From positions 27,653-91,652 of the forward strand of contig CAZBLK010000009.1 in assembly GCA_964492715.1 (NCBI GenBank): a DNA stretch of 64,000 nt, read 5' to 3'. A program made the position numbers. The DNA is from an uncultured Defluviitaleaceae bacterium (GTDB lineage Bacteria > Bacillota > Clostridia > Lachnospirales > WRBF01). Shown here piece after piece: positions 39,001 to 42,000 of this stretch (its first letter is position 1; each line of letters begins with the position of its first letter).

Positions 39001-42000
39001 ATTGAAATGCTTAGGGGGCTTGTTTAAGGTTTGTTTGAAAAAATACAAAAAACAGGCAAAGCTTATGCAAAAAACAAAAGCTTTGCCTGTAATTCTTTAA
39101 AATATAGATACATATACCGTTGTATTACACCAAGAAGTCCTTTAAGCTGTTTTTAATTACTTCAATGTCGCTGTCGTTGTGAACATCAAGGCGCAAAGTT
39201 TTGCCTAGGTCAAGGCTAAAAATACCCATAATTGACTTAGCGTCAACAACGTATCTGTCTGAAGCAAGGTCAAAGTCGCCGTCGAGTGCTGCCATTACGT
39301 TTACAAATTGCTTTACCTTCTCAATTGAGTTTAAGCTTATGTTTAAAGATTTCATTTTTATCTCCCCTTAATTTATAATTAAAAATTTGGTATATGTATA
39401 TATTAACATATTATGTAATGCTGTCAATATTAAAGCGCAAGTAAATGTAGAGTTATATTTACAAAAATTTCCTTAGTATATGTAAAATATTAGGCTAAAT
39501 TTAATGTTTAACGTGCTTGCATGAAAATTATTTTATGCAAAAGGGAGAGTTTTATACTTTTTAATAATTTATAAAGAAAAGAAGTTGTAGAAATGATATA
39601 ATTATATTAAATTTATTCACTAAAAAACATGAGGTGTTATTTTGATTAAAACAGATTATCATATGCACACAACCTATTCTCCAGACGCAAGCAACACTAT
39701 ACAGCAAATGATTGAAAAGGCAATACAGCTTGGGCTTTCAGAAATTGCACTTACAGACCACGTTGACTTTATTCCTGACGGAAGAAGACCTGACAACTAT
39801 ATAGACTATAATAAATATATAGAGGAGTTAAAGCAGCATAAGGCAAGGTATGGCGACAAAATAAACATTATTCTTGGAGTAGAGCTTGGGGTGGAGCCTC
39901 AGCTAAAAGATAAGCTTGAGAAGTTTGCGAGCAGTTTTCCATTTGAATTTATAATCGGTTCATCACACAACACACACCAGCAGGATTTATGGTTAAAAAC
40001 TTTTTATGAAAATAAAGATAAAAAAACAGCTTACTCGCAGCACCTTGAAGAAATTTTAGAAAATGTAAAAACTTTAGACTGCTTTGATGTATATGGGCAT
40101 TTAGACTATATTTCAAGGTACGGAACTTATGAAGACAAAACATTAAGGTATGCTGAATTTTCAGACCATTTGGACGAAATTTTTAAGACACTTATTTACC
40201 GTGGAAAAGGAATTGAAGTTAATACTTCTGGGTACAAATATGGGTTTAATAGGCCACACCCAGACAAAGACATTTTGGAAGCATATAAAAGGTTAGGCGG
40301 CGAAATTTTAACAATAGGCTCTGACTCTCACTGTACAAGCACGCTTGCTGGCTCGTTTGACAAAACAGAAGCTATTCTTAAACAAGTAGGGTTTAAGTAT
40401 TACACTTTGTTTAGGGACAGAAAGCCTGTAATGGTTGCACTGTAACGGTTTTAGCGTAATTTTTAATTTTACTATGCGTTTTAAAATTTATTTTCAAATT
40501 TTTGTTGTTTATAGTTTGATTTTTGTTGCAAAAAATTGTATAATATAATTGAATAATATGGGTACAATGAAAAATTATGCTTATGGCAAATTTTGTCTTG
40601 CTTTTTTGCATGTTTTTGTTAGCTAGTATTATTAAATTTATACTTTATGCTAATTTTAAGCAAATATAGCAATTCCAGTTTTTAACGATATTGGCAGAGG
40701 GAAGCCAAACGCCTAGTCGTTTGGCGTTTTGACAGATAGACAATGTCGATTAAAAACGGAATTGCTAAAGAAAACGCACGGGGGAATTATGGTTACAGAA
40801 GATTACATTAAAATGATTATTGCCTTCATTGGCGGACTTGGGCTTTTTATTTATGGTATGCACATTATGGCGACTGGCTTACAAAAGTCTGCTGGTTCAA
40901 AAATGAAAAGGCTTTTAGACACCATTACAAGCTCTAAGTTTCTTGGTGTTTTGGTTGGTGTAGGTTTTACGGCAATAATTCAAAGCAGCTCGGCTACCAC
41001 TGTTATGGTTGTTGGCTTTGTAAACGCAGGGCTTATGAACCTTTACCAATCTGTTGGTGTTATTATGGGTGCAAACATCGGCACAACAGTTACTGGCTGG
41101 GTCGTTTCGTCGGTTGAATGGGCAAAATATTTAAGCCCGTCTACTATTGCACCGATAGCAGTTGGTGTTGGTACAGCTATGTCTATTTTCCCTAAAAAAG
41201 ACAAAATTAGGCAAATTGGGCAAATTATAGCTGGCTTCGGCATTATGTTTGTAGGTATGAACACAATGTCTTCTGCCGTTTCGCCGCTTAGGTCTTCTGA
41301 AACATTTAAACATTTGTTTGTTACGCTTGGCTCAAACCCTGTTTTGGGTATTTTGGCAGGTGCGCTTGTTACAGCTGTTGTTCAAAGCAGTTCGGCTTCT
41401 GTAGGTATTTTGCAGTCGCTTGCTCTTTCAGGGCTTGTTCCGCTAAACGCTGCTGTTTACATTATTATGGGTCAAAACATTGGAACATGTGTAACTGCTT
41501 TAATTTCAAGTATCGGTGCGACAAAAATGGCTCGTTCTGCCGCATACATTCACTTGTTGTTTAACGTTGTGGGAAGTGTAATTTTCAGCGTTATTGCTGT
41601 TATTTTTTTCACATATGTAAACCCGCAGGTGGGGCTTGGGCTTGCTACACTTACAGGCATAAGCTTTGTTCACACAGGCTTTAACGTGCTTAACACAGTT
41701 TTGTTTTACCCATTTTCTGACTTGTTGGTTAAAGCTGCAACTAAGCTTGCAAATGCCGACAAAGACAAGCCTGAAAAAGATTCGTTCGTTCACCTTGACG
41801 ACAGAATGCTTGAAGCACCAACGTTTGCAATTGAAAATTGTATTAAGGAAATTGTTCTTATGGCAAAGCTTTCAAGCAAGAACCTACGCCTTGCTACAGA
41901 AGCTTTGTTGGAAAAGGACGAGGAAAAAGTTGCAAGCGTAATTAAAAGAGAGCATAAAATTGACACACTTGCTCATGCAATTACAAGGTTTATGATTAAG

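What the first reader, a model, noticed from the sequence alone, without database searches (positions are those of the whole stretch)
40670..40764. Copy B of the 95-bp TIR element sits 24 nt upstream of the Na/Pi cotransporter start
- It has the same element and the same length as copy A. The hairpin is improved (CCAAACG/CGTTTGG) and followed by CGTTTT.
- The 12 substitutions relative to copy A avoid the TIR cores and the hairpin stem, and cluster in the loop and the right-hand internal segment.
- Two of them create a TTGACA hexamer (40729-40734). The ORF caller's artificial TTG start comes from that hexamer.
- The element would terminate transcription arriving from upstream. It could also donate a -35 box to the transporter gene, though the -10 is poor (TAAAAA).
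- The element therefore plausibly rewires expression of the Pi transporter-pgk-tpiA-gpmI-eno block.
Basis: partly seen in the sequence, partly recalled or inferred. Interest (0 to 1): 0.55.

Follow-up and report, generated by a model that had tools for sequence, protein, structure and literature searches.

The report
Small mobile repeat before phosphate transporter
The 95-base palindromic sequence in front of the phosphate-transporter gene is one copy of a small non-coding "jumping" repeat (a MITE) scattered through this uncultured gut Clostridia genome, an ordinary kind of element, with no good evidence that it rewires the downstream glycolysis genes.

Summary
Copy B is a discrete repeat, and its refined limits are 40667-40767 (101 nt, 27-nt inverted arms). 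That puts it 21 nt, not 24, before the ATG of the Na/Pi-PhoU transporter gene.

It belongs to a dispersed family:
- copy A at 23303-23403;
- a solo right end at 24639-24668;
- four more copies in 7.3 kb of the same genome just upstream of the window (Logan contig L089).

One of those four is a 54-nt derivative nested inside another copy and flanked by a duplicated TA. Removing it plus one TA restores a 101-nt element colinear with B. TA flanks 10 of 13 element ends. The element has stops in all six frames. It matches nothing in Rfam, in 185,579 species genomes, or in JGI metagenomes, phages or plasmids. I therefore call it a new, lineage-restricted MITE family with TA target duplication (RUP/Correia-like).

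B is 97% identical to the family consensus and A is 86.5%, so the "improved" hairpin and TTGAC are family states. Only C->A at 40734 is B-specific. B's U-tract is interrupted, and neither hairpin is called a terminator. The -10 is poor, and better promoter-like sites lie upstream. The element is probably just transcribed within the 5' leader.

The parts
40667..40767 (+). Copy B of the repeat: a 101-nt MITE-like element (TAGCAATTCCAG...CGGAATTGCTA), 97% identical to the family consensus.
40665..40666 (.). TA immediately left of copy B, the presumed target-site duplication. The right-hand partner at 40768-40769 reads AA, where three other copies have T at the first base.
40667..40693 (+). Left inverted-repeat arm, TAGCAATTCCAGTTTTTAACGATATTG. 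The A at 40677 is a one-base bulge.
40741..40767 (+). Right inverted-repeat arm, CAATGTCGATTAAAAACGGAATTGCTA.
40704..40725 (+). Central 8-bp G+C-rich hairpin GCCAAACG-CCTAGT-CGTTTGGC (-10.3 kcal/mol), followed by GTTTTGAC. It is terminator-like but below the threshold.
40729..40734 (+). TTGACA hexamer. The family consensus is TTGACC, and only the last A is specific to B. It also holds the spurious TTG start of the 576-aa ORF.
23303..23403 (+). Copy A: 101 nt, 86.5% identical to the consensus. It lies between convergent genes. Its left arm supplies the TAA stop (23319-23321) of the DUF4180 gene. Its hairpin is followed by TTTTT.
24639..24668 (-). Solo right end of the repeat, AATGTCGATTAAAAgCGGAATTGCTA, followed by TA. 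It overlaps the start of a 31-aa ORF (24577-24672).
40516..40544 (+). Best sigma-70-like site upstream of the element (TTGATT-17-TATAAT, 10 of 12). It is a candidate native promoter of the transporter operon.
40605..40644 (+). Two further promoter-like sites (9 of 12 each). The first aligns with the promoter-like site of the 71%-identity relative L001.
40789..42459 (+). Na/Pi cotransporter-PhoU gene (556 aa, ATG start). It is followed by pgk, tpiA, gpmI and eno up to 47479.
22947..23321 (+). DUF4180 gene. Its last five to six codons and its stop codon come from copy A.

Best explanation
Copy B is one insertion of a small non-autonomous transposable element (a bacterial MITE). The element is 101 nt long with 27-nt imperfect terminal inverted repeats. 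It has no coding capacity and carries a central G+C-rich hairpin.

**Mobility**
- The family inserts at TA and duplicates it. Bacterial MITEs such as RUP are thought to be moved in this way by IS630/Tc1-type transposases supplied in trans.
- The TA duplication is shown here. The type of transposase is inferred.

**History of copy B**
- B landed in the 5' leader of the Na/Pi transporter-pgk-tpiA-gpmI-eno block, between the native promoter region and the ribosome-binding site.
- It is the least diverged copy seen, which suggests it is relatively young (inferred).

**Likely behaviour**
- The most likely outcome is that B is simply co-transcribed as part of the leader.
- There it would fold into a roughly 34-bp interrupted duplex of about -40 kcal/mol.
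- Any effect would be post-transcriptional (double-strand RNase cleavage or altered mRNA stability) or weak attenuation at a sub-optimal hairpin-GUUUU.
- It is unlikely to act as a strong terminator combined with a new promoter. All of this is inferred and untested.
For: **Discrete unit**
- A/B homology starts and stops exactly at the ends of the inverted repeat. The flanks are unrelated.

**Dispersed family in one genome**
- A and B are in the window, together with the solo end P.
- Four more copies lie in the 7.3 kb upstream of the window on contig L089:
  - C, at 6386-6542;
  - D, at 4490-4568 on the minus strand, a 79-nt deletion variant with a compensatory C-G to T-A change in the TIR pair;
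  - E, at 6696-6816, decayed;
  - F, at 6404-6457, 54 nt.

**Target duplication**
- F is nested in C's left arm between TA (6402-03) and TA (6458-59).
- Deleting F plus one TA gives a 101-nt element colinear with B.
- TA flanks 10 of 13 ends, against a window TA frequency of 0.07.

**Non-coding and not a known family**
- There are stops in all six frames.
- There is no Rfam family.

**Lineage-restricted**
- TIR-pair scans of species genomes, JGI metagenomes and viral contigs gave 0 hits.
- Looser scans gave only chance hits.
- Plasmid and phage searches found nothing.

**Position of B**
- Promoter-like sites lie upstream of B.
- Only 21 nt separate B from the ATG.

**Fit to published bacterial MITEs**
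- Published MITEs are under 200 bp, have TIRs, 5'-TA-3' at the termini and a TSD, and form long stem-loop transcripts (PMC2229807; PMC10969869).
Against: - No autonomous IS with matching ends was found. There is no transposase in the roughly 72 kb examined (and the gene tables).
- No strain with an empty site at B or A is available. All Logan assemblies of this species carry both.
- TA is its own reverse complement. Outside the single nested case, TA flanks cannot be told apart from a 2-nt longer TIR.
- The copy number in the whole genome is unknown.
- The element is not more A+T-rich than the genome (41% against 38% GC), unlike many MITEs.
- No transcript data bear on the proposed behaviour in the leader.
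Confidence: 0.8

Rival explanations
1. The element's hairpin terminates transcripts coming from upstream. Its internal TTGACA, with TAAAAA as the -10, provides a new promoter. The transporter-glycolysis block is then driven from inside the element.
For: - TTGACA at 40729-40734 is a perfect -35, with TAAAAA 16 nt downstream.
- An 8-bp G+C-rich hairpin of -10.3 kcal/mol is followed by GUUUU.
- No other terminator-like site follows the upstream PHP gene.
- Correia elements are known to create promoters (PMC2649163).
Against: - TTGAC(C) and the 8-bp stem are family states, not local adaptations.
- The -10 lacks the conserved final T and has no TG extension. The scan does not list it.
- The U-tract is interrupted. 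The hairpin is not called a terminator and scores worse than copy A.
- Better promoter-like sites lie upstream of the element, so a strong terminator would also block the gene's own transcripts and pgk-eno.
Confidence: 0.12
2. The repeat is a family of structured RNA genes or cis-regulatory RNA motifs that act at the RNA level. Under this model its copies arose by duplication rather than transposition.
For: - The predicted fold is very stable on shuffling controls (z from -4.1 to -6.6).
- Four A/B differences in the outer stem keep pairing through G-U on the + strand.
- The three copies flanked by co-directional genes (B, D, P) all lie in the sense orientation.
Against: - There is a nested insertion with TA duplication.
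- Contexts are heterogeneous: a 5' leader, a stop codon or 3' end, a divergent promoter region, and inside another copy.
- Internal deletions of 20-47 nt are tolerated (D, F).
- Strand asymmetry of folding is not consistent. Reconstructed C folds better on the antisense strand, -36.3 against -31.6.
- There is no double-sided covariation between A and B.
- There is no Rfam match.
Confidence: 0.05
3. The element is a terminator-type repeat (SPRITE-like). It spreads and is retained because it ends transcription at the 3' ends of genes. Under this model B is a misplaced copy.
For: - Copy A sits on the stop codon of DUF4180 between convergent genes, and its hairpin is followed by UUUUU (tail score 3.72).
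- D starts 5 nt after a stop codon (3 nt if the flanking TA is counted).
- SPRITE provides a precedent (PMC3049150).
Against: - The family consensus has G before UUUU.
- No copy is called by the terminator scan.
- D has lost the tail region altogether, and C, E and F lie in a divergent promoter region.
- Unlike SPRITE, the long TIRs pair into a duplex, as in RUP and BOX.
Confidence: 0.1

Closest known systems
RUP (repeat unit of pneumococcus), Streptococcus pneumoniae
   Same: - About 100 nt long (RUP is 107 bp) and found in a Firmicute.
- Its TIRs pair into one long duplex when transcribed.
- It has stops in all frames.
- It inserts at TA, with TA at the termini.
- It is dispersed mostly in intergenic DNA, and copies insert into other mobile elements (PMC2229807, PMC3049150).
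   Different: - There is no sequence similarity.
- RUP's TIRs match a resident IS630-Spn1, whereas no parent IS is known here.
- RUP is markedly A+T-rich, whereas this element is not.
- This element carries a central G+C-rich hairpin with a U-run.
Correia repeat enclosed elements (CREE/NEMIS), Neisseria
   Same: - 100-155 bp with TIRs of about 25 bp and TA duplication.
- Often sits in leaders close to start codons.
- Transcripts form duplexes that RNase III can cut.
- Some copies create promoters (PMC2649163, PMC2229807).
   Different: - It comes from a different phylum and has no sequence similarity.
- Correia promoters arise at the element ends. Here the only -35-like hexamer is internal and lacks a credible -10.
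- An IHF site was not examined.
[quoted passage not shown]
   Same: It is an interspersed repeat whose core looks like a hairpin plus a U-rich tract. Copy A, like most SPRITEs, lies next to a 3' end between convergent genes (PMC3049150).
   Different: - SPRITE has only AAAA/TTTT as TIRs, an 18-bp stem and a long U-rich tract.
- Here the TIRs are 27 nt, the hairpin is 7-8 bp and the U-run is 4-5.
ERIC/IRU of enterobacteria
   Same: It is an imperfect palindrome of about 127 bp. It is transcribed within operons, has TA at its ends, and shows variants with internal deletions or insertions (PMC2229807, PMC10969869).
   Different: - It is a gammaproteobacterial family with an unrelated sequence and very short perfect TIRs.
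- Its mobility has never been tied to a transposase.

Membership tests
Bacterial MITE (non-autonomous TIR element) | Small size (under about 200-300 bp) | tested here: met
   A, B and reconstructed C are each 101 nt. D is 79 nt, F 54 nt and E 121 nt.
Bacterial MITE (non-autonomous TIR element) | Terminal inverted repeats at the exact limits of the repeated unit | tested here: met
   Arms 40667-40693 and 40741-40767 are 27 nt and 81% complementary. Homology between copies ends at the arms.
Bacterial MITE (non-autonomous TIR element) | Target-site duplication | tested here: met
   F is nested in C between two TA dinucleotides. Removing F and one TA restores the consensus ...TTTTTAACG.... TA flanks 10 of 13 ends. 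Caveat: only one case is unambiguous, because TA is palindromic.
Bacterial MITE (non-autonomous TIR element) | No coding capacity | tested here: met
   There are stops in all six frames of A and B. A peptide search found nothing.
Bacterial MITE (non-autonomous TIR element) | Several dispersed copies in one genome | tested here: met
   Six copies plus one solo end were found in about 72 kb. The genome-wide number is unknown.
Bacterial MITE (non-autonomous TIR element) | Filled/empty site polymorphism between strains | not testable with these tools
   All available assemblies of this species (Logan SRR10912415-18) carry A and B. The nearest other genome is only 71% identical in protein sequence.
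Bacterial MITE (non-autonomous TIR element) | Autonomous IS with matching TIRs that could mobilise it | not testable with these tools
   No transposase was found in the window or in L089. TIR scans of public collections found nothing.
IS630/Tc1-mariner-mobilised MITEs (RUP-type) | TA target and TA duplication | tested here: met
IS630/Tc1-mariner-mobilised MITEs (RUP-type) | TIR similarity to an IS630-family element of the host | not tested
   No IS sequence from this genome is available. The assignment rests on the TA duplication alone.
Intrinsic (Rho-independent) terminator | G+C-rich stem directly followed by a U-tract | tested here: not met
   - Copy B has an 8-bp stem and then GUUUUGAC.
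- It is not called by the scan, which needs at least 5 T in 8.
- It scores d = -38, against d > 0 for six clear terminators in the window.
- Copy A is borderline (UUUUU, d = -11), similar to the apparent eno terminator (d = -13).
Sigma-70 promoter created by the element (Correia-like) | -35 and -10 hexamers at 16-18 nt spacing, with A2 and T6 in the -10 | tested here: not met
   TTGACA is followed after 16 nt by TAAAAA, which has no T6. The site is not listed by the scan.
Any Rfam RNA family | Covariance-model score at or above the gathering threshold | tested here: not met
   Only a tRNA was found in the window. In the permissive search the only hits were miRNA-hairpin noise far below threshold.

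The most novel reading that the evidence does not exclude
The family is a recently active TA-duplicating MITE in an Epulopiscium-related gut Clostridia lineage whose relatives are described as almost free of mobile elements. Individual copies have been co-opted. Copy A would serve as stop-codon donor and terminator for the DUF4180 gene, its U-tract having been repaired to UUUUU. Copy B would serve as a leader duplex, a processing or attenuation site that sets the expression of the phosphate importer together with lower glycolysis.
Probability: 0.12. Interest if true: 0.45.

Novelty: new member of a known kind. Interest (0 to 1): 0.27.

Why it matters
- **For annotation.** The element explains a spurious TTG-extended ORF for the transporter and the element-derived tail and stop codon of a DUF4180 gene. 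It probably also explains why short-read assemblies break at this locus.
- **For biology.** It adds a MITE family to a poorly sampled clade of fish- or animal-gut Clostridia. It also gives a concrete, testable case of a MITE sitting 21 nt in front of an operon that joins phosphate uptake to pgk-tpiA-gpmI-eno.
- **Limits.** MITEs in leaders are well known (Correia, ERIC, BOX, RUP). No regulatory effect is shown here, so the general significance is modest.

Tried and rejected
**Searches that found nothing**
1. Exact TIR-pair scans of genome contigs, metagenome contigs and viral contigs gave 0 hits.
2. A right-TIR 19-mer in genome contigs gave 71 loci. None extends beyond the 19-mer, so all are chance.
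3. An internal 20-mer in metagenomes gave 7 chance hits. An internal 23-mer in viral contigs gave 0 hits.
4. blastn against plasmids and phages found nothing.
5. A composite six-frame peptide query, meant to find copies fused to gene ends, found nothing and cost one large search.
6. A paper search for the run and assembly accessions found nothing.

**Ideas tested and dropped**
7. Alignment of the leader with the 71% relative L001 was too diverged to define an empty site.
8. Logan contig breaks inside copy B as proof of multicopy.
   - The break positions fit repeat-induced branching. The right-hand contig starts exactly one k-mer before the first flank base, 40768.
   - However, an unrelated AT-rich spacer (20543-20584) also breaks.
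   - I therefore treat the breaks as weak support only.
9. Inversion of the segment between the arms (an inverton). The contig break points are not symmetric about the palindrome centre and do not fall where an inverted allele would diverge. Rejected.
10. An integron attC site. The R''/R' core motifs do not fit, and the copies are scattered among housekeeping genes. Rejected on reading the sequence.
11. A small protein "MSIK(N/S)GIA", suggested by the match between B's right end and the 31-aa ORF at 24577-24672. The match is explained by the shared TIR, and there is no Pfam hit.
12. A consistent strand asymmetry of folding as evidence for RNA-level selection. A, B and D favour the sense strand, but reconstructed C favours the antisense strand.
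13. A possible third left-TIR remnant at 1885-1909. With nhmmer E = 2.2 it cannot be distinguished from chance.
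Full report
**1. The observation**

The sequence is as described.
- The repeat finder reports one 97-nt direct repeat pair, 23304-23400 and 40668-40764, at 88% identity. A script counts 12 substitutions.
- TTGACA is at 40729-40734, and the mechanical ORF list starts the transporter ORF at the TTG at 40729.
- The real start is the ATG at 40789. The 556-aa product is identical to a database protein and aligns end to end with homologues.
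- Copy B is the longest inverted repeat within 150 nt in the whole window. Its arms are 40667-40693 and 40741-40767. The unit is therefore 101 nt and ends 21 nt before the ATG, not 24.
- It folds into one long interrupted hairpin with an inner 8-bp G+C-rich stem-loop: -40.5 kcal/mol, z = -6.6.
- One of the 12 differences lies in the TIR (40672), and four lie in the extended outer stem.

**2. Surroundings**
- B lies between a PHP-domain gene (39642-40445) and a Na/Pi cotransporter-PhoU gene (40789-42459).
- The transporter gene is followed at short spacings by pgk, tpiA, gpmI and eno (Pfam).
- A lies between convergent genes. The DUF4180 gene (22947-23321) reads into the element and stops at the TAA inside the left arm. 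An ARMT1-like gene comes in from the other side.
- The window is core chromosome: S7, EF-G, EF-Tu, tRNA synthetases and the dnaK operon. No transposase was found in it.
- The organism is an uncultured, low-G+C (38.5%) Clostridia lineage. The nearest named relatives of its transporter are Epulopiscium, Defluviitaleaceae and Cellulosilyticaceae at 55-59% identity. The nearest genome of all is at 71%.

**3. It is a family, not a pair**
- In the window itself, an HMM and a covariance model with filters off find only A, B and a 30-nt solo right end at 24639-24668 on the minus strand.
- Contigs from Logan runs SRR10912415-18 carry proteins identical to the window's. They represent the same species.
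- One of them, L089, extends 7.3 kb beyond the left edge of the window. It holds four more copies:

| Copy | L089 position | Notes |
|---|---|---|
| C | 6386-6542 | full-length, interrupted by F |
| D | 4490-4568, minus strand | 79 nt; internal deletion; both TIRs carry the paired change C-G to T-A |
| E | 6696-6816 | decayed; contains a short internal duplication |
| F | 6404-6457 | 54 nt; keeps only the two ends |

- That makes six copies and a fragment in about 72 kb.
- B is 97% identical to the majority consensus. C is 95%, A 86.5%, D 83.5% and E 68%.

**4. Evidence that it transposes**
- F sits inside the left arm of C, with TA on each side (6402-03 and 6458-59).
- Deleting F and one TA leaves ...AGCTTTTAACGATATTGG..., which is colinear with B over the full 101 nt.
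- The other copies of the family thus serve as the empty site. They show a TA target duplication.
- With the ends set at TAGCAATT...TTGCTA, TA flanks 10 of 13 ends. TA makes up 7% of dinucleotides in the window.
- The three exceptions each differ from TA by one base. For B's right flank (AA), three other copies have T at that position.
- Removing A and one TA gives ...ACT TAA. This suggests that A inserted into the TA of the original DUF4180 stop codon (inference).
- The element has stops in all six frames.

**5. Not anything catalogued, and not found elsewhere**
- Rfam gives nothing at gathering thresholds. A permissive search gives only sub-threshold miRNA-hairpin noise.
- Exact TIR-pair patterns have no match in 185,579 species genomes, in JGI metagenomes or in IMG/VR.
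- Looser single-block patterns return only chance hits that do not extend.
- blastn against plasmids and phages is empty.
- The family is so far confined to this species.

**6. What it is**

By the criteria used for bacterial MITEs, this is a new MITE family. Those criteria are: under 200 bp, TIRs, 5'-TA-3' at the termini, a TSD, no ORF, and long stem-loop transcripts (PMC2229807, PMC10969869).
- It is closest in design to pneumococcal RUP (107 bp, TA target, TIRs paired in a duplex; PMC3049150) and to Neisseria Correia elements (PMC2649163).
- The TA duplication points to an IS630/Tc1-type transposase acting in trans. No such gene or matching IS end could be examined, so that step is inference.

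**7.

*Polarity.* I used C, D and E as outgroups.
- 8 of the 12 A/B differences are changes in A, 2 are changes in B (40734 C->A and 40745 A->G), and 2 are ambiguous.
- The 8-bp stem, the G that separates the stem from the U-run, and TTGAC are therefore family states.
- B did not acquire them at this locus. Only the last base of TTGACA is new.

*Terminator.*
- The consensus scan calls no terminator in either copy.
- In a d'Aubenton-Carafa-type score, B has the better stem (-10.3 against -8.7 kcal/mol) but a much poorer tail (1.87 against 3.72). It scores d = -38, against d = -11 for A.
- Six clear terminators in the window score above 0, and the apparent eno terminator scores -13.
- If any copy looks adapted to terminate, it is A, at a gene's 3' end.

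*Promoter.*
- TTGACA is followed after 16 nt by TAAAAA, which lacks the key final T and has no TG extension.
- Upstream of the element there is a 10/12 match (TTGATT-17-TATAAT, 40516-40544) and two 9/12 matches.
- One of the 9/12 sites lines up with the promoter-like site in the relative L001.
- Promoter-like matches are not enriched over shuffles in this A+T-rich spacer (3 found against 2.4 expected). This argues only that a native upstream promoter is at least as plausible.
- The element landed 21 nt from the ATG, so the pre-existing promoter must lie upstream of it.

*Overall.* The element is therefore most likely part of the 5' UTR.
- A strong terminator there would also starve pgk-eno, which follow the transporter gene with a 20-nt gap.
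- In the predicted leader fold, the element forms its own domain and the Shine-Dalgarno region stays largely unpaired.

**8. RNA-level selection?**
- Four A/B differences in the outer stem preserve pairing through G-U on the + strand. There is no double-sided change between A and B.
- Sense-strand folds are more stable in A, B and D, but not in reconstructed C.
- The three copies with unambiguous context (B, D, P) are all in the sense orientation. That has a chance probability of 0.125.
- None of this is significant. The paired TIR change in D is equally expected from transposase recognition of both ends.

**9. Assembly breaks**
- Three Logan assemblies end at 40691 coming from the left. From the right they restart at 40701 or 40738. 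They run straight through the more diverged copies A, C, D and E.
- With k = 31, the right-hand restart at 40738 is exactly what a repeat ending at 40767 would give. This fits the existence of other consensus-like copies elsewhere in the genome.
- An unrelated A+T-rich spacer (20543-20584) also breaks, so this is weak support only.

**10. Verdict**
- The thing is a new member of a well-known kind: a TA-duplicating MITE, lineage-restricted so far, with no parent IS identified.
- The proposed terminator-plus-promoter rewiring is not supported by the sequence evidence, and it rests on a reversed reading of which copy changed.
- A modest post-transcriptional effect of a 34-bp duplex in the leader is plausible but untested.
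- Interest is low to moderate.

Noticed in passing
L089 6386-6542 with 6404-6457 nested (same genome, about 0.8-0.9 kb upstream of window position 1): A 54-nt deleted derivative of the repeat is inserted into the left arm of another copy and is flanked by duplicated TA. Together with copy E at 6696-6816, this makes a cluster of three copies in one divergent promoter region, between a WYL regulator gene and a GGDEF-EAL gene.
   Followed up: yes
window 23301-23321 and 23404-23405: The DUF4180 gene ends in the element (...T K S S S S F stop). Removing the element and one TA gives ACT TAA, so the insertion seems to have hit the original stop codon and extended the protein by about five residues.
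   Followed up: partly
window 24577-24672 (-): A 31-aa ORF (MHKIMSIKSGIAIEDTNKNAVNEILKTLGYK) is also called as a gene in the Logan contig L007. It begins inside the solo right end of the repeat and has no Pfam match. It could be a nascent or spurious ORF seeded by the element.
   Followed up: partly
window 1885-1909: The last codons and stop of the GGDEF-EAL gene (AGCGCTTCCACTTTTTAAC) match the left arm as it reads in copy A (AGCAGTTCCAGTTTTTAAC) at 16 of 19 bases, in the same frame. With nhmmer E = 2.2, it could be chance or an old remnant.
   Followed up: partly
window 24733-26315 (-): An ABC-F-type ATPase gene is split into two overlapping ORFs (26058-26315 and 24733-26061). The same split is present in the independent Logan contig. 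This could be a frameshifted pseudogene or a genuine two-part gene.
   Followed up: no
L001 1118-1235 (GCA_964516575.1, the 71%-identity relative): The leader of the orthologous Na/Pi-pgk block has no copy of this repeat. It does carry three other strong hairpins (for example GGCAGTGAAAAA...TTTTTCACTGCC), possibly a different inserted element at the same place.
   Followed up: no
window 20543-20584: Logan contigs from several runs stop on both sides of this 42-nt A+T-rich stretch in a divergent intergenic region. No repeat is detectable there, and the cause is unknown (strain heterogeneity or low coverage).
   Followed up: partly
window 47515-47555: A 20-bp hairpin (-29 kcal/mol) sits right after eno without a U-tract. 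Only six hairpins in the window score as classical intrinsic terminators, so terminators in this genome may often lack U-runs.
   Followed up: partly
window 8616-8690 and 9183-9257: A 75-nt direct repeat (71% identical) lies inside the FMN_bind-domain gene 7848-9563. It is presumably an internal protein repeat.
   Followed up: no
L002 position 61 (= window 40762): One strain in SRR10912418 has T->A in the right arm (GGAAATGC). This creates an in-frame ATG, which the gene caller used to extend the transporter to 565 aa. It is an example of the element generating alternative start codons.
   Followed up: partly
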